Shown here: one piece after another, positions 1,027 through 61,918 of the stretch | How positions within the stretch are numbered: the first letter of the stretch is position 1 | Layout of the letters: each line of letters begins with the position of its first letter | DNA from: Moniliella sp. 'wahieum' | Taxonomy: Eukaryota | Assembly: GCA_003971905.1 (NCBI GenBank) | Contig: RSEE01000049.1 | Location: forward strand, 186,001-250,000 | Reading direction: 5' to 3' | Length of the DNA: 64,000 bases | Notes under the pieces: model-generated | What the model saw: the letters and a program-made list of their open reading frames with translations, nothing else | Databases searched by the model: none | What the model was told of the DNA's origin: nothing | Made by a program: the position numbers and the translations under genes

Positions 1027-1776
1027 TTAGCTTGCGGGAGGGGTAGAACCGAAAGCATCCTTGCTGTCCTCGAGAATGGAAGCATCCTGAGGTGCGTCCG
1101 GTTTGGTTTGGTCGTCAACAGAGGAGAGCGGAATGTATGCGGTCTCAGCAGGCGGGCGCTTTCCAAACCAGCGAACAAGGAAGTTGTCGAAACCACTTAT
1201 AGCCTTCACCCATCAATCCACAAAACACAAATAACAGCAGCCCCGCTGATGCTTCGGAAGTCACGGTGATCACCAAGAAGAGCTGGCGACAGGCATCGCT
1301 GTGGGGATGTTGAGCCCAATTCATACCCGAGACAATGACGAAGACGAGCCACCCAATAGTGCCAATAGTCCCCGCAGCATATAACTTCCTCCCAGCAAGC
1401 CCCACAATGGTAAAGATGATGCGAAGCACGTCGAGAAGCAATAGCACAATTTGTCCCCAGGTGGGATCGGAGACAGCGAAGAAATGAATCAGAACCCTCA
1501 TGGTCCAAACGAAGATCGCAGCCATACCAGCGATCACAAGCACAGCCCCACCACCTCAAGGGCCTCATTGGGCGAATGCGAGGTTGATTTGGCGCCCGCA
1601 TCCGGTGTAGACTCCGTGCTGGCGGCGGGGGGAGCGTGGTCAAAGTAGACAAAGCGGGGGGCACCGGCTGAACCATCATCAGATACGGAAGAGATGCTGC
1701 TACCAGCCTCGGCAGGTGAAGCGCGGTACACATGGACGACGGTGTTGCCGTCGAGGGGATACGGCGCAGTGGGCAT
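1027..1776 (-). CDS. Orphan multi-pass membrane protein, family copy 1 (frameshifted)
   Basis: Starts MPTAPYPLDGNTVVHVYR...FVYFDH (ORF 1534..2037). Continues in hydrophobic ORF 1145..1543 (DPTWGQIVLLLLDVLRIIF, TIGWLVFVIVSG, LFLVITVTSEA) and ORF 1027..1209 (FDNFLVRWFGK). The same blocks recur at 22876-23652 and 61139-61918. Confidence 0.7.
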
Positions 1777-2089
1777 GGCAGGTAGAGGGATGGCGAAGGG
1801 TGGGGAGGGATGAAGAAGGATGGGGAAGAATGCGGGATGGGAGGATGGAGGGTGGTGGCCGTAGTAAGCCAACAGCTGGAGCGAAGAGGGAAATGGAATG
1901 GATGGCGAGAGAAAGCATGCCCGAAAAGGGATGCTGCGCACGAGCGCCTGCTGCGCCGAGGGCCCCACGTGATAACACATACATCGCTTGATCGACATGA
2001 TCGATGATCTGATCGATGGTCGATAATCAAATTTCAAATCGGCAGCATTGGAAACCGTAGAAACTAGACACTAGTCCCTGAGACTAGTC

Positions 2090-2165
2090 ACTAGCTTCAT
2101 GCAGCTTCACTAGCTTCATGCAGCTTCACTAGCTTCATGCAGCTTCACTAGCTTCATGCAGCTTC
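2090..2165. repeat. Tandem repeat, 4 x 19 bp (ACTAGCTTCATGCAGCTTC), trailing into AAGCTTC/ACTAGCTTC units
   Basis: Four exact units read directly from the sequence. Confidence 0.9.
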
Positions 2166-2607: not shown

Positions 2608-2706
2608 GGGCTCATGGTGTAGTGGTATCATGCCTCTTTCGGGACTTTCCCGGACTGGTTTCGGTTCGAATAGAGGTGGTCGTGGGTTCAATTCCCGCTG
2701 AGCCCC
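2608..2706 (+). tRNA. tRNA-Pro(CGG) with 27-nt intron (2644-2670), second copy
   Basis: Exons identical to 238-336; the intron differs at 4 positions; T-run terminator follows. Confidence 0.93.
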
Positions 2707-2949
2707 TTTTCTCGTTTTTTTAACAAACCCTCTACTAATTCAACCTGGGGACGCCGGGACACTGCCGCTGCTCTGTCACAGCAAAAGGGGCTGTGTGCAG
2801 GCACTGAGCCAGGGCAGCAGTGTGGGAAAGAGGACATCAGCCGATCAGCGTGAACGTCGTGAACCACCACCATCGTCACCATCGCCACCATCGCCTCTCC
2901 TGGCTCCCTCCTCTGCTCTTTCCACAAGTGTGGCTGCTGCTTCGTGGCC

Positions 2950-3987
2950 ATGTATCTGCCCTCCCCCGCCGAGGTCAAGCGGCCGGGACCGGTGGGCATC
3001 CGCGTGGGTGCCCTGGCGCTCCAAACGCTGCTGCTCCTTGCTCTCCTCCTCTCCTGGGTCACCCCCGTTGCCACCCCCATCACCCGGCCCTGACGCCTGG
3101 ACAGGCCGACTCGACCAACCCGCAAGCGCCCGTAGATGTTGGGGACCATGAACCTCCGCTTTCGTACCGCAACGGCCGGCACGCCAGCTCGGGTCATGAC
3201 TATACCGACCCGTCCCACTATGGAGGCAGCATGCTGCTTCTCGTTGAAAATGGCATGCGCGAGCCCATCAACGCCATCGTCTCGGGCCTGTCTGATCCTT
3301 ACGTCCTTTCTGATGCCGGTTTCCGTGACTATGTCCGCTCGATTGGCTTTAGCTTTGAATGCTTTGACATGCACCTTGGTACCCCCATGCGCGCTGATTT
3401 GGGCGATGGGAACGGCATGGCAGAGGAGCGCTTCGAGTACCGCGAGATCAAGGATTGGGATGCTGGCCGTGCTATTGGTTCCTGTCGTGAATCGTTGGCG
3501 GGAGGGAACCATTTCCGGGGTACGTCCATCGTTTTTTCTCTCTTGTCATGCATCATGAGCAGAAGCTGACCTCGTACTTGGTTCCAGCTTTCAAGCAGTA
3601 TGGCCCCCTCTCCCAGACGGGCGCCTGGTTCCTCGCCGTGTCGGCTGAGAAAAACTGGCGTACCAGCATAAGATTATCAAGGACGGCTACAACCATGGCC
3701 GGGACTTGCTTGTAAACGCATCAATCGCTGGCGGCTCTTACCGCGGGTGGGAGTGGTCTGCGAAAGTGGAGTATGTCACTGGGCTCCTCGAACCGGGTGT
3801 CCATGGCATCAACCACAACATCCCCCAGGACGGCCGAACGGCTGTGATTACAGTGAAGCGCATTCAGGCGGGCGACCCGCCGATGGGCCAACGCGTCGGG
3901 GCGAAGATGGCCCAACTGGGCTCGATGCTGGTCGAGTTCTTGACGGCCGTGCTCACCCAGATTCAGATGCACACTTACCTGCTTTAG
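2950..3987 (+). CDS. Conserved uncharacterised fungal secreted/membrane-anchored protein (intron 3520-3587; one early frameshift)
   Basis: Hydrophobic leader (ALALQTLLLLALLLSW). Motifs EPINAIVSGLSDPYVL and GSCRESLAGGNHFR, joined across a GTACGT...CTGAC...CAG intron to AFKQYG...GAWFLAVSAE...HKIIKDGYNHGRD, as recalled for a basidiomycete family. Confidence 0.7.
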
Positions 3988-4466
3988 GCTGGCCCGTCAG
4001 CCGGCACATCTGAATCAGTCCTGCTTCCCTGCGTGGCAAGTCTTACACCCACCCTTCTCTTCGTCTGTGTCTACCTCACTTAAGCCCAAGTCGCCTGCGT
4101 TTCCGATGAACTGCCTGATCGCACGTTCGGTTCGCTCGGCTGTGCGGCTGCCCTCCCCTTGCACCGCTACTCTCGAAAGCTAAGCCGATCAAACTTCCCC
4201 TGTCCTAGTCGCTCTCCCCAACCCTCTTCCCAGTTTATATCCATGGACTGCACCTCCTCCCGACTGTGCTGCGTATAGCCTGCCTCGGCCACTTCATACT
4301 AGCTGCGAAGTACAAGGGCACGAGTTTGGGGTCATAGCGGCTACACCAAGGTGGCGTTGCTCCCAAAGTTCAACCTCCTCCCGAAGGCTGAGACGATTCT
4401 TCTCACGTACATCATGAGTGCACCCCCCTGGATGCGTTTCCATACAGCAATATAGGTCACTGCGCC

Positions 4467-5258
4467 TGTTACGGGCTGAGTTGGATCTGGGAGGATCTGA
4501 TACAAGCTAAGGCCCCCTACTCTGCACATACTCAGTAGAGTGCGCTCCGAAGCCCAACCAAGTGTGATGATGGTTGGTTAAATGAGGTATGGTGGCCCGA
4601 TGGGCCATGCATCAGTCCGCGCGGCATTAGTCGGTTGGCCTAAACTGAAGCCACCAAATTTCCAGTCACTTTGCGACGGCTGTCGCCCCGTCACGACTTA
4701 CTTCATCCTTCTCCGTTGCACCTGCGACAACCAATCCATCTTTGACAGGCCTTCCTTTCTATACACCTCTATCGTGTCCGTTTTCCCTTTTGATTTAGCC
4801 TGTACCCCTGTTGATGGGGATCCTTTCTCCGCTTTCCATTCTTATCCCTTCCGGGCCGCCTTTCCTGTCCTCCAGCTTTCCATCCGCCCAGTCGCGCGAG
4901 CCTCATTTCAGCCGCATCGATTCCCCGTACCAGCTTATTGCGTGGGTTCCTTCCAACCACGTCGACAGCCGCCCCTGTTCAGCCTCAGCTCCGGTAGTGT
5001 TTGTCCTCCACTGCCTCCACCCGTCCCTAAACCTCGAAAGCTTCAGACACGTTACTACAGCCCACTCCGATGCATACGCAGCCTTGCAACACGTACAGTA
5101 GTCTCAGCTTCACTTCCAAAGGCCTTGCCTCGTCCCTAGCTCTGTTTGGATCCACCAACTATAGCCCAAGCCCGAAACTACCGTGTGTCGTCCTTTTGTT
5201 CCCTAAGGGATTGTACTCCACAACCCTGGGAGCCCCCTGGCGGGGCTCGCCCGTGACA
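4467..5258. mobile_element. Solo LTR, copy A (Ty3/Gypsy-like termini)
   Basis: Begins TGTTACGGGC and ends GCCCGTGACA (imperfect terminal inverted repeat). Flanked by exact 5-bp TSD GCGCC (4462-4466 / 5259-5263). Homologous to 37989-38811. Confidence 0.9.
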
Positions 5259-8200
5259 GCGCCCCTGCTCGCGCCGGTGATGGTCCAAAGTAGTGGCTCC
5301 AAGGGCATTCGTTGACAAGAGACAATTCCGAGTCAGGATACTTCATCATGTTAGGTTTGATATATGATAAGATGCTACTAGGCTGGGACGCGGTAGCTTG
5401 CCTCAGTGTACCTTACTGCGCTTGCCCCACGCAAGTTATCTGCGTTGCGTGGCCAGCACGTAACACTCGACCATGGAGCCGCACCGCACCGCATCGCGTC
5501 AGGTCATGATAGTCCCCCCATCCCAGACGACCAGGGCGACAGGGCAACACTTACAGCTCCTCAGGCTATAATGCTATAGGGCACTGCAACCATGCAGATG
5601 TATACTGTCCTCGCTTCCGAGCTGGGGCAGGCAATATCAACGTACACGAGGGAGACATGGCCCAACGTGGTATCATTGCATCATATCCGGCATATGAAAC
5701 GCGCCAAGACGTGTCAGGGCAAATACTTGGGAGGGAAATCCTATCCTATTGGTTGGTGCGTCATCCTGAAGTCTCCATCTGAGGTCCTGAAGTATGAGAA
5801 GCTTTGACAAGGTCCGACGGGGAGGCGCTTGAAGCTTGACAGCACTCGATGCGGCGCTATTTAATAGATAGACGACTATCTATGCCGTTCGCGTTTTATA
5901 GGGCAGAGTGCGCTGCTCATCGAGTTCATCAACTTCTTCCTCCTTCCCGTCCGAAAACCATTGATCGATCGTCGTTACTCAATGGTACTCATTCATCAAA
6001 CATGCAAAATGGTAACCTGTGAATGTCATGGGCGCATCCTGGACGGGAGCCCGAATCACAGTGTTGTAGGGGCTTTCCCATGGAGGACGACGGACCACTC
6101 TCACCGTGGCTCCATCCTGAATATACCCCTGGCAGATGCGAACTGAGCTAGAGACGAGGCCAGGCCGCTCAATGTTGTATGGGCCAGCTCTTCACGTGGA
6201 AAAAAGGTCGTTGTGTATGCGCCGGAACGACTGAGGAAGACTAACGAGCCTGCAGTCTGTTTCGTCCTACGGATTGGACGGAACGGTGACGCAGGCAACG
6301 ACACTCAGAAGGGTATGAAAATCCCGTCTTCCATCGGAACAGCTCAGCCATCGAGCCATCGTGTATAATTGCCACGAGGTCCGTATAAGGAGGAGACTGG
6401 ATACTGGGGGTCGACGGCAATATAGATGTCCGCGGTTACATGATACTGGAAGACCCATCAGAGGTGATGATCGCTGGAGGCTGGTCAGTATTATAGGACC
6501 GCTGGTAAACTAGGAGAAGCGCGGGCCTCACAACATGTGGGAGATGCTGTGTTGGGTTAATTATGCATTTATGCTCCATTTAGATGCTCCAGAGTACTTG
6601 TAGGGGTTTGTTCGATGTTCAGACAAAAGACAGCTCAGTCTTGACGTAGACCAACCTAGGCAAGGGAGACAAGGGGATGCATGAGCTTGGCCGGGCTCGA
6701 CCGCCGCGCGCCGTCGCCTCGTGACACCATCAGGCGCGCGCTTCCTCACAAGACGTGTCCTCATGCCTAAGGAATCGATGGCCTCTCCCCTGCCTGCGGC
6801 ATGGACGTTAGGGCATGTGCTCGCCACTCTGCACTCCTCTCCCTTAATAGCTTGATCGATTATCCATCGTCGCGAAAGCCGTCGCTTGATGTGCTCCTCT
6901 TTCCAACCTCAACTCGGTGCTCGGCACACATCTCCTCCATTGGGGAGTTGGACAACATGCCACAGCGAGATCCATTCTGAATCCCTCACACCTCCTTCCT
7001 TCCATCGGTCGTCGGGATGCGAGTCAAGGCTCTTATCCTTTGCCGTTCCACTTTCTTTCGGTCATTGGCGGTACGAGTCCACTCTCCTTGTGAAGCTAAC
7101 ACAATAAGTGTGGGTTGTACGGGCTCAGTTGTACTCAGTTTTGTTGTACTCAGTTTCGCCCGTAACGCGAAACCATAAAAGCAGAAACCTTCTTTGCCCC
7201 CCCCCTTTCCCATCAACAGAATTCGGTATAGTACTTTGTCTAATTAGTATCTACACTTCGCGCGCGGCTCTTGGTGGTCTTCCTTCGGCCTTGCTTCGGC
7301 CCCCTTCGGTGCTGTCCTCGCCACCCAATGCCTAATGGTCAGATCTCAGAGCGACAGCGACGGGGCTCCATTATACATCGTGACTAATATAATGACTATA
7401 GTGACTGCTTCGCAGTATGGATATATACGAGGTGGGGGTGGGGTGAGATCTGAGACCGCCACTAGTCACTTGTATTTTAGTCCTTTCTCAATAGTACAGA
7501 AACAGGACGCACTCGCGCATGCGAGATCCGGAACGTGGGACGCTTGGCCGATGTCACAGACACTTGAGAGCGTGGCGAGCGCGGAAGCGTGGGCGGCATA
7601 GACATCTGCGCATGCTACTCGGTGTTCTCATCATCCAATCGGTCATTAGTTCCACCAGGGGGAAAGGCCTGGTGTCGGGCTGGGGAGGTCAGTGCCATAT
7701 GCACTATGCACAAGTACTCCGTGCTCGCTACCACACTTTCTCGACATGATGCACATGATGTCGAAGATGTTGATATGCCCTGATGGCCAAAAGAATGCAG
7801 GTTTTACCCTCTACAGCAGGATCTCCAGTGCGAAGCTCCTGCGTGGCTTTTGTCGTGGTCGCTCTTTTTCGGACGCGCCTACTACGACGGCTATGCTTTG
7901 GTTAGTAGCCTGGTCCACGCTTGTCACATGCTTCAAGCTTCATGCCGTGATGATAGTCACAAAAGTAGGCGTACATATCGGAGCCAACCAGAGCAGACTC
8001 CTTGGCCCTGATGCTATAGCCCCCATAGTTCAGAGGCTCGGCGATCGGCCCTCAATATTTAATCCTCGATACCGGTGGCCCAGTGGCTCAGCAGCGTAAC
8101 AAACGCTAAACGGGAGTGCTAGGATCGGGTGATAGGAAACTGGGGTTACCTTGGACAGGCTAGGATCCAAGATCTGGGATTTGGGATCTGAGTCCTGGGA

Positions 8201-10068: not shown

Positions 10069-11329
10069 GGCGAGTGGTGGTAATAGAGGAAATGTTTGGG
10101 GGGGGGGAGAGGGGGAGGAACTTTAAGGCAGGCCGAGACGCAAAGCCGGTCTGCTACAGGCGGCAGATAAAAGAAAGGTCAGAGCAGGTTCCTTTTGATA
10201 CGTATACCAAGTAGGGTGACTTTCGAACACCAGGCCGGCCCGCATGGAGACAAGGCAGGGGGCGAGAGACAGAAAGTGCGACGATACCGAGGAGATTAGG
10301 CTCGGCAGGTCACTCAGGGGTGTGTCAACTGGTCGATTGTACTCACGGGGTCCAGGAGGCGGCTGGGCGAGGGCAGGAATGGAAGTGTGCCCGACACAGA
10401 GGGAGGAGTGGTGGGCGGAGAGGCGGAGGGGCGAAAAGAGGCGGGCGACGGGGGCGCGGCGGGCTTTATGAGAGTGAAGGAAGGAGACGTGGGTCTGCGG
10501 CAGGGAGGCTGCGCGGGTGGAAAAGGGCAGGGAGGGGCACACGAACACGGGCAATGCAAAGCAGACCAACAACGCAACACAGGCGCTGGGCCTGCAGCGC
10601 GCCAGAGCAGACAGCGGCCTTGTGCTGGCCAGACAGGCCCGCGCACTGGGGGGGAAGTGCTACTGACTAGCGACTGACTAGCGACTGGCTAGCGACTGAC
10701 CAGCGACTAGGGTCCATGCACCATGATCGAACGAGTGAGACGGATGGCGCATGCGGAGAAAGAGCCGACGGCAGGATCTGAGATCGGAGATGTGAGATAG
10801 CTCGATAGTCCATCGTCGATAGCATCGATGGAGTCTGGTCAGGAGGTGGGCCGCAGGACGGGGGGCAGTGCTCGCCTGTGCTGGCCCCTGCTGGGCGCTG
10901 GCCTCCTTTCGAAGCGTTTGCCTTCGGGCGCAGGCTGAGCGCTGGCTCATGCATGATGCGCTGATTCATCATGCATTTCCCTTCGGATCCCCCAGGCCGA
11001 AGGAGAAATGACTGTTGTGACATGGCAGGGAGCAGTGAAAACGGGCACCTGCAGGCTATCGTCTCTCGTTCACGGAACGTACGGCTTCAGGAGATCGGGG
11101 CCCAGATCTCAGATGCCCGATCGATCAGACAACGGGGCCAGTGAATGCGGGAACTATGTATGTCTGTCCCCAGAAGCACTCCACCTCCAGGCCCAGCCCA
11201 AACCGAATGCAGTCAAATTTCAAATCGAGTCGGAGGGACGTTGGGTGCACAGCCAGCGTGGGAGGGGTGGGGCCGCAGAGCAGCCGGAGGCAGAACAGAG
11301 AAGGGCCGCGACTGCCGACAGGAGCAACA

Positions 11330-14300
11330 CAGCCATCGATCATCGATCAGCGCTGAGGCTCAGCAAAGCAGGGCGAGGCGGAGCCAGGCCCCGATCATCG
11401 ATCCATGTCACACGCACATTCATACGGACACGTCCAGCGCTGCGCTGCTGTTGCTCAACGCCCGAGCAGCACTCAGCACGACTTGGCGTCGCGCGTCACG
11501 CAACCGCCAGTCATTTCGTCACTAGCCCTAGTCATGCATGTCATGAGCTGACTGTGAAACTTGCATCACATGCATCACAACGCCACTTCGTCAGCGCGTC
11601 ACCGGTCACCGGTCAGAGCGTCACACGCCGCCGCGCCAGCATCCAATGCCCGCGTCGGCAGCGCACCAAAAGCATCCTGGTATACATACAGGTTGCGGGG
11701 CCCTCTTGCCACAACAGGCCCCACGCTCTTTCTTGGTCATGGTCTTGCCACTACGTAGTGGTACAGATATGTTGCAGACTGCGCCGATTGCTTCAAACGG
11801 ACGGCAGCTGGCACCCGAGACGATCGTAAGCTGATCGGTGAATGGTGAAAAGTGGTTGGTGGCCGCTGGTTCAAGGTGGCCTAGTTTGGCCTGCGCTTAC
11901 AGACTCAAGAGCTCCTTCCGCACCCGCAGTGCACCGGCCCCCTACAGCACTGCCCCCGATCAGTCACCTAGTCACCACCGGTCTCCGGCCACAGGCCACG
12001 CGTCACCCGTCACGCCCAGCGCCGGGGGGGAATGGGCGCAGTGTCACCGGGTCGTTGACCACAGGGGCTAGGGAGTACTGGGTGGTGAGATTGAGAGTAT
12101 GGAGTACTCGTCTGAGTACTCGTCTGAGTACTCTAACCCTCAGCCTGAGAAGCCTGGCTGCTCTGTCGCTCAGATTTCGATCGCTTAGCCTCAGCCGGCG
12201 AAATTACCGGACACCGCGTTGAATGTACGTTGAACGTTGAACGTTGAACATTGAACTCAACGTTTTCCCTGTGGTAGACCAAATACTCAGGCCCAGGGGC
12301 CTCCTCAGGGCGTCAGGATCGGCACTCCTTTAAAACCGAGAAACGAGGGCAATAAGTACTAAGTGGATATTGGATCTTGAAGAGTGTCTTTTGAGATCTG
12401 ATATATCTGGTTACCGGTTACCGCTTACCGGCCTTACCGGTTACCGGCTAGGCCTGAGTTAGGCCTTAGGAGTGCTGTACCAGCAGACCTCAGTTCGTCG
12501 CGGGGTCACCGGTCACCGGTCAGACCTCGGGTATCTGGCTGGACAGGTGGGTGTGGCTAGGCGCTAAAAACGCCAACGAAGCTGGAATCGGTCATGCGCA
12601 GATCGCTTTGCGAGGTGTACTGAGTGTACTGACTAGCTGAGTCTGAGTTCTGCTTAGGCGCTCAGCGCTCAGGCGCTCAGGCGCTCAGGTCTCAGGTCTC
12701 AGGCTTGGCAATCAAAAAAGACTCGCTCGTGGCGGGCTCCGTGTTCGGCCCTGTTCGGCCTCACTGGCTCAGTAGCCACTAACGCACTCACTAATCGATC
12801 ATCTCGATCATCCAAAGATGGGTGACATGTGACATGTGACATGGTGCGGATTCAGAATTCAGATATTCAGACCTCAGGCCTCAGGCCTCATGATATTCAG
12901 ACCGAGGCCCGAGGCCAGCAACATGATACATGAAGCATGATGCGTGACGCGTGACGCGTGACGTTGATCATGGTGCCACCATGTCACCACGTCACCGACT
13001 ATCGATCTAGTCACTAATACTCACTATGTATTCACTCGCCACTCGATCAATAGTGGATCATCGATCATCATGCATGCATCAATATATATCAATCCCGGTC
13101 CCAGTCCAGGATCATCGATCATCGATCACTAGTCACTTCGACAATCGATCACTGGATCATCGATCATTAGTCATGCGCCACGCGTCACGAAGTCACGCTC
13201 AGAAACCTCGAATCATTAATCATTCACCTCCATGTGCATCATGCATGAGTGCCTCAGCATCAATTGATTAGTCGCTTCGCCGTACGGTACTACCAGTGTA
13301 CTACTGCCTGTACTGCCCAGGTGCTGGCGAGCAAATTGCTCCACCGGGTTTAGGTGGTCGGGCGGTCGGGCCTGGTTTGGTCCGCAAAAAGACCGATGTC
13401 GATGACGACAAGGTGGTTGGTCGCGGGGCGGGCGAGCGCAGCTAGCGCGCTACCCCCTAACTTGTGCCGGTGATCGACGGTGTCGCGTGACGCGTTGCCG
13501 GTTTACTGGGGTATGTGACACGTGCCATACAACAAACCTAATGCTATCATGCCCATTCGTCACATGTCACATGTCACAGTAGGCCACAGTCGATCTCCCC
13601 TAGCGGCTAAAAGATCTAATGTATGATGCATGATTTGCATGATTGAGGCTCTTCAAAAGCTTCAAGCTTGAAGCTGCAAGCTTCAAGCTTCCAGCTTCTT
13701 TAGGCCTCAGGCGCAGGAATAGTGCGACGTTGTACCACTTGTGTACCAGCCATGGCGACGGCCCTCTCGGGAATAGGGAAAATCGCAATAAAACCATCGA
13801 TTTATCGATTACCGATTCTTATCGATTACCAGTTACCGGTTACCGGTTACCGGCTTACCTAGTTACCCAGTTACCGGTTATCGATTACCGAGGACTGGTT
13901 TCCGGTTACCGGCAAGGCCTTAGGCATTACGCGCTACGCGTTACACGTTACGCGCCTTCAAGCTTAAGGCCTATGGACCACGGCCAAATAATGGATCGAT
14001 TACGCATTACCACGTTACCCATTCTGCATTTTGCCCCTCCACATCGAGACATTTCTCCTGCGTTGCCTTTCTGGACGCTCGATGGTCGATGGTCCATAGT
14101 CTTGGCCCCGCCCAGCTGGGTACGTAGCGCCGATCTGATGAGTGTGAATTCCAATCGCCTTTGCACCGGGGGTACATTCGGAACCGAACATGTCCCAAGG
14201 CAGAAGTGAGTCGCCAGCATTGCGCCGCACTCCTTCACTCCGCCTTATGTGTTAAACTTTCAAGCTTCACGCTTTGAGTCTGTCCCCAAGCCTCGGCCTC

Positions 14301-14530
14301 ACGTGCTGCTGCGGTCCGAGGTCGGTAGAATATGTACTTCAGCTTCAGACTTGGCCCGTTGGAGCGTGGTCGTGCATCGTGGACCAGTTAGAGGGACCGG
14401 CTAGCGTGACGCACTGCATCCCACACTTTCGTTTGTGAGATCTGTGAGAAGTGATTCTCCCGCTGACGGGTGATGCATGATGTCTGAGCATGATCATTTC
14501 GATCATTCATCATCGATCATCGATCATGCT
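11330..14530. repeat. Dense cluster of 7-bp-phased palindromic micro-repeats (A-N4-T-N)n
   Basis: AACGTT-G (12233), ACATGT-G (12825), AGGCCT-C (12876), ACGCGT-G (12947), ATCGAT-C (13114), AAGCTT-C/G (13657) and ACCGGT-T (13835) arrays. Confidence 0.85.
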
Positions 14531-15353
14531 TCATGGGCTCTGAATTTGACATTGGAAAAAGCTGTTGGAAGCTATAGGCCCTAGGGGAAATGCGAGGCTT
14601 CGCCTTCTCTGGGTGGGCACGTTATTATTAAGCGGTACCCAAATTTCCGGCCACATACCCTACTGCAATAGAGGTGCAAAAAGTCTCCGTGCTGCTGCCC
14701 CACGGGCGGGCGTTGCGGCAAGCGCCACACGAGTAAATAGATGAGTGCGCGCGATGTGCTCTAAAATCTAAAAGCGCCAAGTCGTTTCTCCTGTGGCCCT
14801 ATATTATACGCTGAGTAACTGAGTACACCTGTACTGAGTAAAAACCTCTTAACTACTGAGTACTCAACGTTACTGGGTGTACTCTGAACGCCCCGCAAAA
14901 GCGGTTCGCGCAAAAGGGCTATTTGATACAGCCGTTCCCCAAGCCGATGCGCGGAAAATGTGGGCCATGTAGACCAGCACAGGCCAATCATGATGCACAT
15001 GATGCATGGTGCATGATGCATGATGGTTCCACGGATCTAGGCCTACTGCCGGCAATGTCGAGTATATGTGGACGCTGAGGAAAGACTCCTGGACGAGATG
15101 GATGTGGGTGCTAATGAAACGACCCCTATATATATATTGCGAGATCCAATAAACGATGATCGATGAACTCCTTTTGCGCCCTATATACGATCCGCGCGGA
15201 TGCAACGCACACGCATGAAATGCCAAGCAAACCTGTGTAATAAACCACCCTCCTCCACATACCCGGTATCCTAGGTACATAATAGACCGGGACGGAATCC
15301 CATTGGTCCTTTCGTACAGCATTTGTTTAAAATAGCAACTCTCTAACATATAT

Positions 15354-15566
15354 GGATGTCAACCACGTTCATCCGTGTCCACGCGCGCTTCCTAGGGTAC
15401 GGCCCTTAGCGAGAGCCGGAGGGTCTTGATATCCTGGCGATCCCCCTGGTTCCTTGACCTTGGTGGCGCTTCCAAGTAACCCCCGCAAGATGAACGGTTA
15501 GGTTTAGACGTAGCGTTCCCCCTGCCCCAGCCTTAAGCTCTGTCAATGAAATGGACGCAAAGTAGA
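15354..15566 (+). mobile_element. 5'-truncated 3'-end fragment of non-LTR retrotransposon
   Basis: Similar to the reverse complement of about 30948-31165, including the end of the ORF (ACCACGTTCATCCGTGT) and the tail GCAAGATGAACGG...CCTTAAGCTCTGTCAATGA. Confidence 0.75.
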
Positions 15567-18500
15567 ACGCACATGCATATAGTAGGTGTATATATTCGAA
15601 AGGGTATCGTATGTAATGTGGGTAACTATTAGTAGAAACTAGTAACTAGTAACTCTCCACTCTAAGATCTAAGGCTTGAGCGAGCGCTGAGCTCAATCTC
15701 ACTCCGCACTATAGCCTCACTCTCCTGATGATTATTAACGTGGAGGCCTGAGGCCTGATGCACCTAATGGTCCTCATCGAGGGTGTTGATTGACGCAATC
15801 GCACTAGTGGTGCTGGTAATAGTAGGTGGTGGTGGGGGGTCTAAGCCACAGCCATCGAACAACTCCTACAGAGGAATATCAAGCAGCCAGACTCCACCAG
15901 GGGGGGGGGCTACTAGACTGAGGAACAAGGAAAACCGAAACGAGAAAACAACGGAACTCCTGGGTCTGAGGAGGGATCTGTGGAGGGACTGCCAAAAGGG
16001 ACGGTGGCCAAAACACACAGGAGCCATTCGACACCTCTCTCGTCTCCTGTTGACCTGGGTTGTGTCTATTAAGCCAAAAGACCGAGCTGGTTGATCTAAA
16101 TGTTGACCATCGTTACGTTGAACAGTCCATGTATTACATTGCGTTCAAACAGAGCATATGCCAATTCAACCTGCACTACGTGGGTCGAGTCCCTTTTGTA
16201 CGGCTGAGAGATGCTATTCGGTGAGCTGCTCCCCCCTCTGCCTTTATCCTGCTTTTGGGATTATTATTACTTCCACCTTTTGTATGCAAAAAAACGAGCT
16301 CTACTTGACCTTCCTAATCCGTCCGTTTCCTTCCCTCTCGTTCATTGCGATGATTTTTCGTATATTGATGAATTTCTCGTTTTGGGCTGAGAGTGTGTCC
16401 TCCCGGCTCTTTCCGTCCTTAGTCCCTGCAGATTTGCATGGGCCGCCAGCAGCCTACAAGGCAAGAAGAGACTTCTTGAGGTCTAGCACGGAGGCGGCGG
16501 ATCATGTGGCAAAGCTGCCTTCGACAGCGCCTTCGGCAGTATTAGTGACGTGCCTGAAAAGCCATTCGGACTCGGAAAAGGGAGAAGAGGCAACCAGAAG
16601 GACAATCCCCTCAGACTAGGATTGGAGTGGGAGCTGGAGGGACTGAAGCTGGGACTGAAGCTAGGGACTGAGGGCTGCGGGGGCTGGGAGCGAAAAGACT
16701 GGGAACTGTGTGGTTGATAGGCCGTAACTGAGAGACGAAGTTGATAATAGGCGTAAGAGGCGAAGGCGGAGAGAACAGAGGAGTCTATCAAGTGGAAAAG
16801 AATTTGCCTCGCTGTCATAAAAGGCCCATTATTTACGGACTGCCGAGCACGGAGGGTGGCAAAAATCACACAAACCGGGATTACAGGCTATAGGCTGAAA
16901 AAGGAAACCAAACGCAATAGAAGGAGAATTGGGAAAGGTATAAGGGACTGTAGGGTGCAATTGCCACCAGGAAAACAATTCCCTTGGTCCTTGGTTTTAC
17001 TCGCATCGCCCGGCCCTTACAAGAGAGGGTGTGCCATTTTTGTATCAAAACGCCATTTCTTTTCAATTCATCATTGACCTAGGCATTCATTTCTTCTGTA
17101 TAGTCTTTTCCTGCTATATATGCCGCATTTTCCTGTGACCTACAGATGTTCTTTCATCCAGTTTCCCTTCGTTCGGTGGACCCCTATTCCCATCGAAGTC
17201 CAGGACCTCGGGTCCGGCGTACCGATGTCACTGCGATCACATACGGCCGAATTTCAGCCACACTGCTGACCACATAAAGCATGCTCCGGTGCTTCAGGTC
17301 TTGCATAGGCGTCTCGCCCCGTTCCGTTTAGGACGTGTTTAGGTTCGAACAACCGTAGCCTCGTCCATGAAAAAAACTCTGGGCCGATTCCCAGTGCGGA
17401 GTCTGCGCCTAGTGTGTGGCGCATACAGCACTAAATGTCGGGAGGGGGGGGTTCAAATTAATTATTGTTGGAGGAGCGAGATGTCCTCCACACAACATCA
17501 CCGTGTGACTTTTGTCGCTCGAGACTGTAACTTTGATCATGTTCGGATCTTTCTTCAAGCTTCATATATCATGTCTCTCCTCTCCATTCTCCGCATTTCA
17601 GCGCAATGTTACTGATTACTGTACGGCGTGTGCGGCTCTTCATGGTGAAGAGAGGGTCTGTGTGACATACAACAAAAATACACACGGCCTACGTGAATCA
17701 TCCCGAGGCCTGTGGCTCGTATTTGAGGCATTCCGCGAGAGGGAAGCGAGAGACGCCAGTCACATAACATGTAACATGCAGTGCCCTCGAGGACCGAGCA
17801 CCCTCCGCGCGGTCCCCACCATACTGAAGCCAGTCAAGACTTAGCTGCGCTTCTCCAGCTTCGCCCCGCTACTTTCTTAGCGCCTTTTAGTGCCAGTCTT
17901 TGCTTTCGCGCTTCCGAGTTTGTGATGCCAATATACACCCAGCTGTTACCGGCTACCAGTGACCGGAGTGACCTAGTGACCTAGTGACTGGCCTCGGCGT
18001 CGATGCCATCATGGATGTCACACACAGCCGCATGTCACAGATACGTGACCGAGTACTGTGTATTGACGCACTGTGACATGCATGTGACATGTGATGTGGG
18101 ACGAACTAAAGATGCGAGTGTAGTCACAAGTCACTCAGGACTCAGTACTCAGTCTGAGTACTCACTATCACTAGATCCTCGCACTAGATCCTCGATCACT
18201 TCGATCACTAGATCACTATAGCTTCACTACGTCACTACTCACTACTCACTACTCACTACTCACGACTCACTACTCCCTAGCCATGCAGTCCTGTACTTCA
18301 ACTTGAAGCTTCAAGCTTCACAGGCATCGGCACCCAGTACCCAGCACCCACACACCCAACTCCAACTCCGCCGCAGTGACCCTGTGACTATAGTGACTTT
18401 TTGTGTGCCGGCAGTCCCCGTTTCACCACCAGCCGGGTCCTTGACGACCGAGAATCGTCCGGTTGAGCTTGAGAGCTCGAGCTCAGCCGGGCACCGTGAT

Positions 18501-22104: not shown

Positions 22105-22875
22105 GGCTCTGCTCCTTGGCGGCGACGGCAGCGCCACGAGTGGAGGGCAAGGCAGTCGCCCAGCGGTTGACGGCGGGGGGGGTGGCGGTGCGTGTGCGGG
22201 CACGGGCGGGCTCGGAGGAGGCCAGGGCAGCGCTGAGGCCGAGGGGGGGGAAGGGGGAGCCGGTGGTGGGGTTGAGCGCGTGCGGGACGGCGCTGGCGCT
22301 GGCGGGCGAGTCGAGCTCGGGGCGGCCAGCGACGGCGGAGCGCGGCGCGGCATCCTGGTCGGCGCAGCGGGCAGAGGCGGCGGGTGTCGAGAAGCTCTGG
22401 GCGAGAAGGCGGCGGCCGAGACGCGGTGCTGTGATGAGCGCCTTCAAGTTGGAGGGGCGTCCGTCCGCTGCAGCATTCAACATTCAATATTCTCGCCAGC
22501 ACACCGCAACCCGCAATGCCCGGCGCGGGCCAGCAACATTGCAAGGGGGACAACCCTAGCAACCCTACCTCGGTTATGCCAGTTCTGCCGCGTGCACCCT
22601 GGGACACGACTGACGTCCCCTGGCGTCCCCTGGTGTCTCCTGGTGTTTCCTGGCGTCCCACTGGCGCACCCCGGGTATCCACCTCACGTTGAGATTCAAC
22701 ATGGCCCAGTGTCTTTACGGCATGAGGCTCAGTTGCTCAGTGGCCACCCGAAAGCTGCCCTCAACGCCATGATCATCGATCATCGGCCACCGCATGCGAT
22801 TGACGTCCCACGGCGTTGGCGCCACGCGACCCCCCCCCTCTTTTCTTCACCACCCTTGCCTGCCTTCCACCTGCC

Positions 22876-23652
22876 ATGACCACTGCTCCTTACCCCATCG
22901 ACCGCAATACCATTGTGCATGTGTACCGCTCCAGCCGGGTGAGACGCACCAATACCGCAACCTCTACTGCTGAGACAGCCAATTCTCCCTGTGTGGTCTA
23001 CTTTGACCATCCCCCCCAACCTCAACCCCCCCAATCTCCCAACCCTCCCAACCCCCCCCAAGACTGGTACGGAGCTTGCGCGGGTTGCGAGTTCTTCACG
23101 CTTTCTTCACCTTCCGATTTTGTTCCGTCGACATGGGACATGACCTTTTTCAGCCTGCTCGCATGCTGGACATGTTATAAAGTAGTCTTGTTGCTTTGTA
23201 CCCAGAGCCCGACATGGGACAAATCCTGCTTCTGATTCTTAACTGTGCGCGTGGTGTACGAGATTAAGCGGTGGAAGAGGGGAAGAAGTATGCCGCCAGT
23301 GCCGTTGGTGTTCTTGGTTGGATCACCTTGGTGGTTCTCACTGGCATTGAGTCGGTGACCAATTCGCATAAAAATGATGCCGCCGACACCATCTTCTTAT
23401 TGATCGCAGTATCTTCCGAAGCAACAATGTTTTTGTACTTCTTTATTACTTTCGCTCACCATGCGAGTATGGGTGTCATTGATTCCTTTTTCATTCGTCT
23501 GTTGGGCAAAACCCCGCCCTACCAACGCCCAGCACAATCCGCTGCCGGGCTCTGCGGATGACCATGTGCAGGACAAGCCTCGCTCCAGTGAGGAGGAGGA
23601 CAACGACCGCATGTCTGCCAGCATTAAGCCTGTTGAGGGAGGCCTGGTTTGA
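22876..23652 (+). CDS. Orphan multi-pass membrane protein, family copy 2 (frameshifted)
   Basis: MTTAPYPIDRNTIVHVYR...VVYFDHP, PTWD, EGKKYAA...LGWITLVVLTG, KNDAADTIFLLIAVSSEAT, IDSFFIRLLGK, ending ASIKPVEGGLV*. Confidence 0.7.
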
Positions 23653-23962
23653 TTCATTCTTCGATCGGTGTCCTACCTGTTGGCCGTGGTCTTCTTGTCC
23701 CCAGTCAGCGCTCAGCGACCCCCGCTTGCATCCACTTTTGCTTCCCATCCCGTATACCGCTCTCCCACTCTACCCTTCTTCTGCGCCCTAGGCCGACACT
23801 ACGCGTTGTTTGTATATGCTTCTGAAACCTGCTCCCTATGCTTGCCCGAAAGATCTACTTGTGCTCCTACCAAACAAGAGGAATGCCGGACGGGGAGGAT
23901 TGTCGTTACACTACCAACTCGTGTATGAAAGACACGATGAAAGGGGAGGTGGATGGTCGTAG

Positions 23963-24034
23963 GGGCGGATAGCTCAGGGGTAGAGCGCTTGCTTAGCATG
24001 CATGAGGTCCGGGGTTCAATTCCCTGTTCGTCCA
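23963..24034 (+). tRNA. tRNA-Ala(AGC)
   Basis: Cloverleaf GGGCGGA/TTCGTCC with the G3:U70 alanine identity pair, anticodon loop TT-AGC-AT, TTCAATT T-loop, followed by T6 terminator. Confidence 0.95.
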
Positions 24035-24190
24035 TTTTTTTGGCTGCGCGGCAGACTGGGCTCCTGCGAGCGTGCTGGCTTACGTATGGCGCGGGCGGAG
24101 GCGGAGGCTTTGGCGCTGCGGCGCGCATGCAAGCACACCCTGCGCGCTGCCGGCCCCACCACCACCTCCGCCCGAGCCCACCCGAGTCCA

Positions 24191-43332: not shown

Positions 43333-43443
43333 GGTGGCGCTACCACAGGCAACACACGCAAGATGAACTGTTCTTCGGTTTAGGCGTAGCGTTCCCCTGT
43401 CCCAGCCTTAAGCTCTGTCAATGATATAGATGCAATGTAGAGA
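43333..43443 (+). mobile_element. Short 3'-tail fragment of the same non-LTR element
   Basis: CACGCAAGATGAAC...CGGTTTAGGCGTAGCGTTCCCCTGTCCCAGCCTTAAGCTCTGTCAATGATAT closely matches the reverse complement of 30948-31032. Confidence 0.75.
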
Positions 43444-57876: not shown

Positions 57877-60220
57877 CTAGTTGCCCTCCACCTGCGCCTC
57901 CTTCAAGACCACCAGGCCCTCTCGTACCTTTTGATCCAACGCGTCCCGGTTGTGGATGAGGATCATCAACTCGTTCATCTGCATCTCCAGCAGCATGCCC
58001 GTCAACTTGCCCGCCAGATCCGGCTGCGTCTCCGCAATCCGCGGGTAGAGGATCTCGCCAATCATCTGCTTCTGATCTTGCGGCGACCTACCAGCAAGAT
58101 TGTACTCTTCCCCTTCAAGACGAGGGACCACTGGTTGGGGCATCGCCGCTGGCGGCGGAGGCGGTGCCGACATCATGCTCGGTGCTCGTGCAGAGGGCGG
58201 CGCACGGAACCCTCCCGTTGGCGCCGCTGAGTCCACAGACCCAGCAGCTCCATCCCACGGGCCAAGGGGTGCCGCGCGTCCAGGCGGGGCAATGCGTGGT
58301 GGTGGGCGGAGTACACCTGTTGCATAGAAATGGAAGGATAGTACGTAGAGCCCATGGGCTGGTACGGCATGGGAGAAGTTGGCAAACGTCCTCCCCGTGT
58401 AGCCATCATCGGAGTTCCACCGTACGCAGCGTTTTGGATGCCATACATGTTGTAGTACCCCTGTTGTTGCTCTTGCTGCAGCATATGTTCTTCGTGGCGT
58501 TTAGCAATCAGTGCTTCGATCTGTTGCCGCCGTGCCTCCTTTGTTTGGGCACGAGCGATATAGAGTGGCCGACCATCAATCAACTTGTCACGCATCTCCC
58601 TCATCGCGTGGTTCGCCACGTCTGGCGAACTGTACGCGACAAAGGCAAAGCCGCGCGAGTACCCCGTCACGGGGTCGCGCATCACCTTGGCACTGGTGAT
58701 CGTGCCAAAGGTCCCAAACAGCTCAATCAAATTGTCCTCAGTAAACGTATCGGGAATGTTTTTGAGGTAAAGGTTAACTCCCTGCAAGTACGACATGCTC
58801 CGTTGGACTGCAAAAGTGCGTCGTAGTTCGGCTTGGCGCTCCCCTTTTTTTGGGCACGAGCGACAAAGAGGGGCAAGCCATGGAAGTCTTGGCCGTTCAG
58901 GGCTTTAATCGCGGCCTCGGCCTCGGCGTGTTGAAGGAAGTTGACAAAGCCAAACCCAGACGGGGTGCCATCCAGCATCTTGGCTAGATGCCAGGAGGTG
59001 ATGGTGCCAAACTGGGAAAACAGGCTTTCAAATTCTTCGTCGGTGATACTGGTTCCCAAGTTTTTGCAGTACACATTGGTGAATGACGCGCGGAGCGCTT
59101 CGGTGCGAGCCATGCGCTCCGCCTTGGGCAAATGGTGACCCACATAGACTTTTTTGTCATTGAGCAGCATACCGTTGACATGGTCGATGGCCTGCTCAGC
59201 TCCCTCTTTGGTCTCATAATGGACAAATCCGTAACCCAAGCTAATCCCATCGGGCCCTACAGCCACCTTACTGGAAAGGATCTTGCCAAAGGCAGAAAAG
59301 GTGTCATGAAGCGCTTTGTTGTCAATGCTGGCATCCAAGTTCCTGATGAAAATGTTGCCCTCCCCGCTCCGGCGCATTGAAGGGTCGCGCTGAGAAAACA
59401 TGATCCGACACGCGCGGTCTCGAATGACCGAGTAGTTGAGTTTTTCAATCGCCTTTTCGGCATCAGCAACATTGGCATAGTTGACATAGGCGTATCCCAT
59501 CGAGCGCCGCGTTTGGGCATCACGGCATACCCGGATGTTGCTTACGGTACCCACCGTGCTGAACATTTGGTAAAGCAAGGCTTCCGACACTGTAGGAGCC
59601 AGGTCGCCCACATAGAGCGACGAACTTTTGGTTACATGGGGAGAACGGGTATTAGTGGTGAGAGCCGTGGTATTAGCGCTCTTAATGCCAGTGATGGGCT
59701 CCACCTTGGTCTCCACCCCTTCTGTGCCCGCACGTGCCGCGTTTGGCGTAGATGAAGTAGATGTGACATTGCCACTAGCAGAGTCAACTGCACCAGCGAC
59801 TGTCGGAGCATTCAGGGACAAACCCCCGCCAATAAAGGATCCGGAAAGAAAAGGAGAAGTAATGGGAGCACCCTTCGGCATCCCAGCAAGGGCGAGCAGG
59901 GTAGGGTCTGAAGCCGAAAGGGGAGGGCGAGAAGGAGGAGGTGCATCAGTATCCGTAGTCGTAGTCGTATCCGTAGCCATAGCCGTAGCAGAGCTTGGAG
60001 CCAAGAGGGAAGTACTCTGAGACGGAAGCGAAGCGGGGGCAACCACCGCCGCCTCGTCCAGCGCGCCACGGGATGCAACAGAAGAAACGGGGGCGCGGAC
60101 GGCGGGAGGCAACACACCACCGGCCAAAGTGGAGGGCGGAGGCACGATGATAGCCGCGGGGGCAAATGCTTGCTTGGTCGGGGCGGGCAGATCGATAGGG
60201 GCGTTCATGTGGGCAGACAT
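57877..60220 (-). CDS. PAB1: Polyadenylate-binding protein (4 RRMs + MLLE), long N-terminal extension, frameshifts
   Basis: SLYVGDL...IRVCRDAQTRRSMGYAYVNY, GNIFIRNLD..IDNKALHDTFSAFG, FTNVYCKN, QGVNLYLKN, and MLLE domain QKQMIGEILYPRI...AGKLTGMLLEM. Confidence 0.9.
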
Positions 60221-61138
60221 ATGGGAATATGAGCGGGAGACGAGAAAGGGGCAAGAGAAGAGGAACGAAGAGAGGCGGGAGCAGAGGGAAGAGAAACGAG
60301 GTGGTGGGCAGAAAACCCAGGAGGCAGCAGTACTCTCTTGGGTCTCTTAAGCAGCCTCAGGAGGGGTGCGTCTGGCCACTTGACTACTCGGCACTGAGTG
60401 GCGCTTCGGCTGCGCAGAGCGGGAGCTGTAGCGAGTGTGGGTTGTGACTGGCTCTCTTGTTGTGGCCATTAATTAGCCTCTGTACCGAGGGGCAGCGCCC
60501 CCTGCAAGCCGGCTCTGGCACCACGCCAGTCTGCCACCAGCACCACTCGAAACGGGCGGCAGCAACCCTAGTGCTCCACCGCCTCCCCTGGAGGCGGTGG
60601 CGGCCCATCCGCATTCGGTGCAGGCAGGACCGCATCCATCCAGCACCCCCACGGTCTTTATACCTCCTCCCGCGCTCACCCTCCGCTCACGTCCCGTTGG
60701 TCCTGCCAAAACACCTCCAGACTCCGCTGCCGGTTTGCGGAATGCGTGTTCAGGTGCTCTCTCTTCCCTTTGATTTGGGTGGGCTGTGGTCTGTTTTTTT
60801 TTTGCAATGCTTTATTGGTCACTCTACCATCCATCCCGCCCTCTCATTGGTGTTGTAAGGTACCTCCTGAGTCGCGACGAAGCCAGACCCCCCAAATATT
60901 CACCGCCAGTAGGATAATCGTCATCGCTCATCTTGGAACGACATATGTCAACACGCGCACCAGGAGCATTGGATTTATAGCAAAAAAAAAACATACGGCC
61001 CCAGGGGTAGAGTGGGGCAGTGAGGGTGTGGTGCGAGATCGGAAGCAAAAGTGGTTGGAAGCGGGGGTGAGCTTATAGTCTGCTGACTTGGGGTCAGAAG
61101 ATCAGGACCAACAGACATGAGATGGACCAAAGAGCGAA

Positions 61139-61918
61139 TCAAGCCAAGCCTCCCTCAACAGGCTTAATGCTGGCAGGCGTGCGGCTGGCTTCGTCCTCAT
61201 CACTGTTGGAAGCAGGCTTGGCCCGCACAGTGTCATCCACAGAGGGCGACAGTGGATTGTACTTGACTTTGTTGGGGTGTTTTTTCCCACTAGACGAACG
61301 AGAAAGGTATCAAGAGCCCCGATACTCGCATGAAAAACGGAAATCACCGAAACCATTAAACCCAGTGTTGCTTCGGAAGGGACTGCGATCAAAAAGAAGA
61401 GTGTGTCGGCGGCATCATTTTTGTACGGCTTGCGCACCGAGGACGCAATGCCAGTGACAACCATCAAGGCGATCCATCCAAGAGAGCAGCAACGACGATG
61501 GCGGCATACTTCTTCCCCTCTCCCAACCCCACAGAGACGAACGCTATGCGCAACACGTTCAGAATCAGAAGCAAAAATTGTCTCCGTGTGGGATGCTGGA
61601 CTAAACAAAACTCGACCACCTTCCATGCTGTCCAATATAAGACCGGCATCAAAGACAAGTAAAGTAAAGCACCTTCCGCCGCCGGAGGGGTTTTACCAGA
61701 GGAAGGTGAAGAACTCGCATCCGGTGCAACCTCCGTACCGGTCTTGGGGGGGTTGGGGAGGTGGGGAGGTCGGGGGGGTGGTGGTCAAAGTAGACAACAC
61801 TGGGACAACTAGCTGTCTCAGCAGTCGAGGTTGCAGTATTGGTACCGTTCTTGGCCGGGGGGGCGCGGTACACATGCACGACAGTGTTGCTGTCGATCGG
61901 GTAAGGAGCCGTGGGCAT
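61139..61918 (-). CDS. Orphan multi-pass membrane protein, family copy 3 (frameshifted)
   Basis: MPTAPYPIDSNTVVHVYR...VVYFDHHP, LGEGKKYAA, LGWIALMVVTG, KNDAADTLFFLIAVPSEAT, LDTFLVRLVGK, ending ASIKPVEGGLA*. The 3' flank is also similar to copy 2. Confidence 0.7.

What the first reader, a model, noticed from the sequence alone, without database searches (positions are those of the whole stretch)
1027..61918. Three-copy orphan membrane-protein family, each copy beside a tRNA gene
Seen: paralogs at 1027-1776 (-), 22876-23652 (+) and 61139-61918 (-) share MxTAPYPxDxNTxVHVYR...VYFDH and several hydrophobic segments. They are dispersed, not tandem, yet copy 1 is about 0.7-0.8 kb from two tRNA-Pro genes, copy 2 ends about 0.3 kb before tRNA-Ala, and copy 3 starts about 1.1 kb from tRNA-Val. 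All four tRNA genes in the window have a family member nearby. Established: some retroelements (yeast Ty1/Ty3, Dictyostelium TRE) target Pol III genes. Inference: the family may spread by tRNA-targeted mobilisation or tRNA-mediated ectopic recombination. No transposase, LTR or TSD was seen around the copies, and n is only 3.
Basis: partly seen in the sequence, partly recalled or inferred. Interest (0 to 1): 0.72.

Follow-up and report, generated by a model that had tools for sequence, protein, structure and literature searches.

The report
Orphan membrane genes beside fungal tRNAs
A smut-related fungus has three scattered copies of a fast-evolving membrane-protein gene with no known relatives, each within about a kilobase of a tRNA gene; budding yeast has a gene family with the same habit, and three copies cannot prove that the tRNA genes attract them.

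Summary
Three paralogs of a roughly 250-residue, four-helix membrane protein lie 310-1057 bp from all four tRNA genes in the window (Pro, Pro, Ala, Val). No homolog was found, but the lineage is thinly sampled: the nearest named ASF1 is 80% identical. Every copy has frame breaks, and so do housekeeping genes, so the assembly is indel-rich; copy 2 may still be truly decayed. In-window odds of the co-location are 0.001 at base level and 0.02-0.06 at gene level, chosen post hoc with n=3; no genome was available. Targeted transposition is not supported. Side, strand, distance and tRNA type all differ, shared sequence stops about 100-150 bp outside the ORF, and I saw no LTR, TSD, poly(A) tail or mobility gene. 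Only copy 1 has the direct-repeat tRNA flanks that tRNA-tRNA recombination predicts. The best reading is gene-sized duplicates captured at fragile sites beside tRNA genes. The same pattern is published for the S. cerevisiae YPR071W/YLR036C orphan family (5 of 5 beside tRNA genes). The scan's earlier notes showed no look-alike on other DNA.

The parts
1027..1776 (-). Family copy 1: about 250 codons, four predicted transmembrane helices, 2 frame switches as assembled
1208..1555 (-). In-frame membrane core of copy 1 (116 aa); model has helices 2-27, 33-54, 58-82 and 87-115, mean pLDDT 60
22876..23652 (+). Family copy 2: about 259 codons, about 6 frame switches, possibly decayed; head-to-head with a NOT4-like gene
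61139..61918 (-). Family copy 3: about 260 codons, 3 frame switches; upstream of a PABP-like gene
22829..23752 (+). Block shared with copy 3 (ORF plus short 5' and 3' flanks), 72% identity
61034..61969 (-). Block shared with copy 2
238..337 (+). tRNA-Pro(CGG) gene with intron; copy 1 lies 689 bp on its 3' side, convergent
   Evidence: isotype read by hand
2608..2706 (+). Second tRNA-Pro(CGG) gene, 95% identical to the first over 104 nt, in direct repeat; copy 1 starts 831 bp on its 5' side, divergent
23963..24034 (+). tRNA-Ala(AGC) gene; copy 2 ends 310 bp on its 5' side, same strand
62976..63075 (-). tRNA-Val(CAC) gene with intron; copy 3 starts 1057 bp on its 3' side, same strand
   Evidence: isotype read by hand

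Best explanation
This is a real, lineage-restricted, fast-evolving family of small integral membrane proteins: a soluble N-terminal region of about 85 residues with two conserved motifs, four transmembrane helices and a polar C-terminal tail. It has spread as gene-sized units (ORF plus about 50-150 bp of flank) that carry no mobility machinery of their own. The copies came to rest beside tRNA genes because the DNA beside tRNA genes is a hotspot for breakage and for uptake of new DNA (fork stalling, repair that captures a cDNA or a short segment, or retroelement traffic), as inferred for yeast gene-gain sites. Shown here: paralogy, the four-helix hydrophobic core, the short shared unit, the tRNA neighbours and the mixed geometry. 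Inferred: that the association is causal, the capture mechanism, and that the frame breaks are mostly assembly errors. The protein's job is not shown. My best guess is a dispensable membrane protein under relaxed or diversifying selection, as for the yeast family, whose five members have no deletion phenotype.
For: In-window co-location P 0.001-0.06 depending on the null. Internal control: neither copy of the two other duplicated pairs in the window (0 of 4) is next to a tRNA gene, and neither are the 4 copies of a dispersed non-coding repeat. Copy 2/3 similarity is significant only within 150 nt of the ORF (scores 41 upstream and 75 downstream, against shuffle maxima 28 and 24). Side, strand and isotype vary, as expected from passive capture. 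Precedent: in S. cerevisiae 33 of 96 gene-gain sites lie beside tRNA genes, about three times chance, and all five members of the orphan YPR071W family do (PMC2675101, passages and section 17). A 2026 preprint places the same five genes in transposon hotspots (bioRxiv 10.64898/2026.08.24.746667, section 29). Coding constraint: copy 1 vs 3 differs at 45/31/50% of codon positions 1/2/3 with dN/dS about 0.5, and amino-acid identity exceeds a neutral simulation (94 vs 72 of 228 codons, P 0.001). Copy 2 has 0 stops in 227 aligned codons against 4.1 expected (P 0.016). Assembly errors: the dynein light chain gene is split across frames, with residues 33-56 in another frame, and the match to yeast Vac8 ends where the frame switches.
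Against: n=3, post hoc, with no genome-wide count and no empty site in a relative. Under the most conservative null P is 0.06. Copy 2 vs 3 shows no codon-position bias (27/25/26%) and dN/dS 0.93, and its amino-acid identity is not above neutral (P 0.10). The family has more frame breaks (11 in 2.3 kb) than the housekeeping genes (at least 8 in about 6.1 kb; both counted by eye, the second a lower bound; P 0.005, and 0.10 without copy 2), so some breaks may be real decay. I saw no poly(A) tail at the 3' end of the shared unit, which gives no positive sign of cDNA capture. All three copies lie within 61 kb on one contig, unlike the yeast family, which is spread over four chromosomes; that fits local duplication as well.
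Confidence: 0.5

Rival explanations
1. Chance. The three copies are ordinary local duplicates of a fast-evolving gene in a region rich in paralog pairs, and their tRNA neighbours are a coincidence that a scan over hundreds of windows picked out.
For: Gene-level P is only 0.02-0.06, and the scan holds notes on over 400 windows of this genome. Two other paralog pairs lie in the same 64 kb. The geometry relative to the tRNA genes is inconsistent.
Against: All four tRNA genes in the window flank a copy (P 0.004 with equal gaps, 0.0002 with length-weighted gaps). The other duplicated pairs are not tRNA-adjacent. The pattern has a tested precedent in yeast.
Confidence: 0.3
2. Targeted mobilisation in trans. 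The gene's RNA or DNA is moved by the machinery of a retroelement whose integrase docks on Pol III complexes (Ty1-like), so copies are placed near tRNA genes.
For: Two of three copies lie upstream of a tRNA gene at 310 and 831 bp, close to the roughly 750-bp Ty1 window (PMC5006619). The shared unit is about transcript-sized, and the copies align without long gaps. Unchecked scan notes report LTR elements in this genome, and LINE stacks beside tRNA genes in another basidiomycete.
Against: Copy 3 is 1057 bp downstream of its tRNA gene. There is no LTR-like repeat in the spacers by self-comparison of the window. The best TSD candidates (6 and 7 nt) are no better than random flank pairs, of which 733 of 2000 reach 6 nt or more. 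No poly(A) tail was seen. Pfam found no RT, integrase or transposase among 111 of the window's 162 ORFs scanned.
Confidence: 0.1
3. A wtf-like selfish gene that spreads by ectopic recombination between dispersed Pol III genes (gene conversion, or an excised tRNA-gene circle that re-integrates at another tRNA gene).
For: Copy 1 is flanked by two 95%-identical tRNA-Pro genes in direct repeat, the product expected from circle integration, as described for wtf and 5S rDNA (PMC9562144). The protein is hydrophobic and diverges fast (dN/dS 0.5-0.9).
Against: Copies 2 and 3 have a single tRNA gene each, of other isotypes (Ala, Val), with no detectable similarity to tRNA-Pro in self-BLAST. The gene-to-tRNA spacers are not similar between loci, whereas they are highly similar in wtf-5S units. 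No intron or second-start layout was seen, and Pfam gave no significant hit.
Confidence: 0.07
4. The copies are long-dead pseudogene fragments and the frame breaks are real, so there is no working family to explain.
For: 11 frame switches in 2.3 kb, more than in housekeeping genes. Copy 2 vs 3 has dN/dS near 1.
Against: Start and stop positions are kept in all three. There are no in-frame stops in 227 codons of copy 2 vs 3 (P 0.016), and there is clear constraint between copies 1 and 3. Essential genes nearby are broken the same way. Copies 2 and 3 are 2-10 times richer in homopolymer runs of 5 or more than VAC8, PABP, CIA30 and ASF1 (9-10 vs 1.1-3.8 per kb; DLC 0).
Confidence: 0.03

Closest known systems
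S. cerevisiae YPR071W / YLR036C orphan family (YPR071W, YLR036C, YIL089W, YPL257W, YIL029C); PMC2675101 and bioRxiv 10.64898/2026.08.24.746667
   Same: A small, highly divergent, lineage-restricted paralog family with no obvious progenitor, every member beside a tRNA gene, mechanism unclear. From memory, not from a call: SGD describes members as putative membrane proteins.
   Different: A different phylum (Ustilaginomycotina here). No sequence relationship was found, though no direct comparison was possible. The yeast copies are on four chromosomes and 4 of 5 adjoin Ty LTRs; here three copies lie within 61 kb and no LTR was seen in the spacers. The copies here are closer to each other (41-56% aa) than the most divergent yeast pair (10%).
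wtf meiotic drivers beside dispersed 5S rDNA in Schizosaccharomyces octosporus and S. osmophilus (PMC9562144)
   Same: A fast-evolving dispersed family beside Pol III genes; copy 1 is flanked by direct repeats of a Pol III gene. That Wtf proteins are multi-pass membrane proteins is recalled, not from a call.
   Different: wtf uses one repeat type with similar spacers, has 5-6 exons, and encodes a poison and an antidote from two starts. Here there are three tRNA types, dissimilar spacers, no introns seen and no test of killing.
tRNA-gene-targeted retroelements Ty1, Ty3, TRE5/TRE3, DGLT-A, Skipper-2 (PMC5006619)
   Same: Copies lie near tRNA genes; two of three are upstream, at about the reach of the Ty1 window.
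   Different: No RT, integrase, LTR, TSD or poly(A) tail was seen, and there is no fixed side or distance.

Membership tests
YPR071W/YLR036C-type tRNA-adjacent orphan family (as a kind) | Divergent paralogs with no homologs outside a narrow lineage | tested here: met
   41-56% aa identity between copies; 0 hits among 1.84 billion representatives and none. Caveat: the nearest named ASF1 is 80% identical and only one unnamed sequence is at 90%, so close relatives are barely sampled.
YPR071W/YLR036C-type tRNA-adjacent orphan family (as a kind) | Every member beside a tRNA gene | tested here: inconclusive
   3 of 3 in the window; the rest of the genome was not available.
YPR071W/YLR036C family (by descent) | Sequence homology to the Saccharomyces/Naumovozyma proteins | tested here: inconclusive
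   No hit of any kind in profile searches. The yeast proteins were not fetched, so no direct profile-profile comparison was made.
YPR071W/YLR036C-type tRNA-adjacent orphan family (as a kind) | Adjacent to LTRs or transposon hotspots | tested here: inconclusive
   No repeat in the spacers by self-comparison within the window; no genome-wide repeat library was available.
wtf-type drivers spread through Pol III repeats | Flanked by copies of one Pol III repeat, often in direct repeat | tested here: not met
   True for copy 1 only (1 of 3); copies 2 and 3 adjoin single tRNA genes of other isotypes.
wtf-type drivers spread through Pol III repeats | Gene-to-repeat spacers similar between loci | tested here: not met
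   Beyond 150 nt from the ORF, 0 of 12 flank comparisons exceeded their shuffle maximum; the best two were reached by 1 and 2 of 100 shuffles.
wtf-type drivers spread through Pol III repeats | Multi-exon gene with antidote and poison starts in exons 1 and 2 | tested here: not met
   The three copies align codon-wise from ATG to stop with no single gap run over 16 nt, so no intron is apparent. No RNA data were available to confirm this.
wtf-type drivers spread through Pol III repeats | Spore killing and transmission bias | not testable with these tools
   Needs crosses or expression tests.
tRNA-targeted retroelements (Ty1, Ty3, TRE, DGLT-A) | Encodes or is bounded by retroelement parts (RT, integrase, LTR, TSD, poly(A)) | tested here: not met
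   None among 111 of 162 ORFs scanned in Pfam; no terminal repeats around the copies; TSD candidates at chance level.
tRNA-targeted retroelements (Ty1, Ty3, TRE, DGLT-A) | Consistent side and distance from the tRNA gene | tested here: not met
   Upstream 831 bp divergent, upstream 310 bp tandem, downstream 1057 bp tandem, downstream 689 bp convergent, against 15, 50, 100 bp or under about 750 bp upstream.
Known four-helix membrane families (MARVEL/synaptophysin, connexin, tetraspanin, tweety) | Shared fold beyond a generic four-helix bundle | tested here: inconclusive
   The model has pLDDT 60. Foldseek gave no E under 0.001. The best VIA Z was 11.6, tied among unrelated bundles and below the level of about 13 expected by chance for helical bundles.

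The most novel reading that the evidence does not exclude
The family is a self-spreading selfish membrane-protein gene, wtf-like in biology (killer, antidote or incompatibility factor), that colonises a basidiomycete genome by landing beside tRNA genes of any isotype without carrying recognisable transposon parts. Together with the yeast YPR071W family, this would make tRNA-seeking orphan membrane genes a recurring strategy that evolved independently in two fungal phyla.
Probability: 0.08. Interest if true: 0.8.

Novelty: new member of a known kind. Interest (0 to 1): 0.36.

Why it matters
How orphan gene families come to sit beside tRNA genes has been open since the 2009 yeast paper called the mechanism unclear; a 2026 preprint still only infers a link to transposon hotspots. 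A second, apparently independent case in a basidiomycete, with copies close enough (72% nucleotide identity) to define the moving unit, would make the question testable by comparing filled and empty sites. As it stands the case rests on three copies in an error-rich assembly, so it is a lead rather than a result.

Tried and rejected
No whole genome is held, so the genome-wide permutation test was impossible. Homolog searches with the membrane-core alignment and the N-terminal alignment found nothing significant; the word-based ones covered only longer proteins and are weak evidence. The ESM Atlas gave a best score of 0.80 to unnamed bacterial clusters and no usable hit. The five metagenome loci are chance matches to one short motif, inside stop-ridden frames and without tRNA genes; rejected. 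Sequencing runs: 5 listed, each with 5% of the words, and no RNA holder listed. I laid 4 of the 5 on 20200-31000; they cover the tRNA-Ala gene and short low-complexity or conserved scraps, nothing on copy 2, so neither the frame breaks nor empty sites could be checked. Fold searches gave only generic four-helix bundles. Tweety proteins appear weakly in two searches (E 0.13; Z 10.8); I do not count this. The T[GC]A-palindrome-T[GC]A heptamer motif noted by other agents is not enriched beside the copies (0-3.7 per kb in their six flanking gaps, against 5.0 per kb in the largest gap), so it offers no link. ARAGORN's Ser and Leu isotype calls were rejected. Paper searches for a basidiomycete or general fungal case of tRNA-adjacent orphan families and for a guessed genus listed nothing relevant in titles and abstract starts; I read only the listings, and most subscription journals are outside this library. 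Figure 6 of PMC2675101 and the supplements of both yeast papers were not seen; they hold the distances and sequences needed for a closer comparison.
Full report
Setting. The window is fungal. It holds genes for VAC8, a PABP-like protein, ASF1, a NOT4-like protein, CIA30, a G-patch protein, a C2H2 protein and a dynein light chain. ASF1 is closest to Ustilaginomycotina: the best named hit is 80% identical (Tilletiaria) and one unnamed sequence is 90% identical. The lineage is therefore thinly represented in the databases. No whole genome is held.

The observation. The three paralogs are at the stated coordinates and share the stated motifs in 3 of 3 copies. Copies 2 and 3 are 72% identical over 961 nt; copy 1 is more distant. 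No fourth copy was found in the window. Rfam and a B-box scan give exactly four tRNA genes. The gaps are 689 and 831 bp for copy 1, 310 bp for copy 2 and 1057 bp for copy 3.

Are they genes? None is open as assembled: I counted 2, 6 and 3 frame switches by eye. Conserved neighbours are broken in the same way. Residues 33-56 of the dynein light chain lie in a different frame from the rest, the Vac8 match stops at a frame switch, and PABP and CIA30 are split across frames. The assembly is therefore indel-rich. Against a purely technical reading, the family has more breaks than the housekeeping genes (11 in 2.3 kb against at least 8 in about 6.1 kb; P 0.005, or 0.10 without copy 2). Copies 2 and 3 are also much richer in homopolymer runs, and 10 of 13 frame-changing gap runs touch a run of three or more equal bases (no control). 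Copy 1 vs 3 shows coding constraint: mismatches of 45/31/50% by codon position, dN/dS about 0.5, and amino-acid identity above a neutral simulation at P 0.001. Copy 2 vs 3 shows none (27/25/26%, dN/dS 0.93), yet has no stop in 227 codons where 4.1 are expected (P 0.016). I read this as a real, very fast-evolving family in which copy 2 may be decaying.

The protein. About 250-260 residues: a polar N-terminal part with the two invariant motifs and, in copies 2 and 3, a proline-rich low-complexity stretch; four hydrophobic segments modelled as four helices at low confidence (pLDDT 60); and an acidic, polar tail. Pfam gave no significant family. Profile searches of 1.84 billion representatives, word searches, PDB sequences, viral contigs and the ESM Atlas found no relative, and fold searches returned only generic bundles. 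Given, orphan status is what a fast-evolving gene of this lineage would show and is weak evidence of novelty.

Is the tRNA link more than chance? Random placement by base gives P about 0.001. Gap- and gene-level nulls give 0.023 (every copy has a tRNA neighbour), 0.004 (and all four tRNA genes flank a copy), 0.021 (3 of 19 genes) and 0.06 (3 of the 11 non-housekeeping genes) (gene spans are my approximations). Internal controls go the same way: 0 of 4 copies of two other paralog pairs and 0 of 4 copies of a dispersed non-coding repeat adjoin a tRNA gene. The pattern was chosen after it was seen, in a genome with over 400 annotated windows, so chance keeps about 30%.

What moved, and how? Similarity between copies 2 and 3 runs about 50-110 nt upstream and 100-150 nt downstream of the ORF and then stops. 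Beyond 150 nt none of 12 flank comparisons beat its shuffle maximum. There are no terminal repeats, TSD candidates are at chance level, and I saw no poly(A) tail. Geometry differs at each locus. Copy 1 is upstream and divergent to one tRNA-Pro gene and downstream and convergent to the other, copy 2 is upstream of tRNA-Ala on the same strand, and copy 3 is downstream of tRNA-Val on the same strand. Known tRNA-targeting retroelements keep a fixed side and a narrow distance (PMC5006619, passages), so an autonomous or tightly targeted element is unlikely. Two of three copies do lie roughly within reach of the Ty1 upstream window, which keeps mobilisation in trans alive at low odds. Recombination between tRNA genes fits copy 1, which is flanked by 95%-identical tRNA-Pro genes in direct repeat, but not the other two.

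Comparison with what is known. Gordon, Byrne and Wolfe (PMC2675101; passages and section 17) report that 33 of 96 gene-gain sites in S. cerevisiae are beside tRNA genes, about three times chance, and that all five members of the orphan, highly divergent YPR071W family are beside tRNA genes, with the mechanism unclear. They list fork stalling, ectopic recombination and cDNA capture by Ty reverse transcriptase as possible causes. A 2026 preprint (10.64898/2026.08.24.746667; passages and section 29) finds four of the five beside Ty LTRs and argues for a transposon-related origin. [quoted passage not shown] So the finding works like the YPR071W case, while membership by descent is untested and unlikely. 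My searches (listings only) showed no basidiomycete report of this pattern, and the scan's own notes showed no look-alike sequence elsewhere and no matching note.

Verdict. The most likely reading is gene-sized duplicates of a fast-evolving four-helix membrane protein captured at fragile sites beside tRNA genes (0.5). The rivals are chance (0.3), targeted mobilisation in trans (0.1), a wtf-like spread by recombination (0.07) and dead fragments (0.03). It is a new member of a known kind, interest 0.36; a genome-wide census would settle most of it.

Noticed in passing
window 35100-36500 and 44900-46260 (+): A second paralog pair, 72% identical over 633 nt, encoding multi-pass membrane proteins; the second has a weak DUF6534 match (E 0.16). 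Neither is near a tRNA gene.
   Followed up: partly
window 4467-5259 and 37989-38812 (+): A third duplicated pair, 71% identical over 854 nt, with no Pfam hit and no long clear reading frame; it may be a small gene with a long leader, or non-coding.
   Followed up: partly
window 15354-15566, 30946-31163, 32674-32775, 43319-43443: A dispersed non-coding repeat of up to about 210 bp in four copies (77-85% identical), two long and two partial; it looks like a solo LTR or other small element. All copies are more than 6 kb from a tRNA gene.
   Followed up: partly
window 10123-18999: An 8.9-kb stretch without a clear gene that holds 44 of the window's 89 T[GC]A-palindrome-T[GC]A heptamer motifs. Short arrays of this kind also lie upstream of copies 1 (about 2085-2195) and 3 (about 62040-62115).
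   Followed up: partly
window 238-337 and 2608-2706: The two tRNA-Pro genes have identical mature sequences and introns that differ at a few sites yet keep the same predicted fold, with the anticodon paired to the intron; their flanks are not similar.
   Followed up: partly
window 1765-1776 (-) and 61907-61918 (-): Copies 1 and 3 begin with P-T-A-P, which from memory is the ESCRT-I binding late-domain motif; copy 2 has T in place of the first P. Not tested, and may be chance.
   Followed up: no
window 2860-3990 (+): An intron-bearing gene just downstream of the second tRNA-Pro gene, with an N-terminal hydrophobic segment and no Pfam hit in the parts scanned.
   Followed up: no
window 57880-60220 (-): A PABP-like gene (RRM domains and an MLLE domain) with a long low-complexity N-terminal extension and frame breaks.
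   Followed up: no
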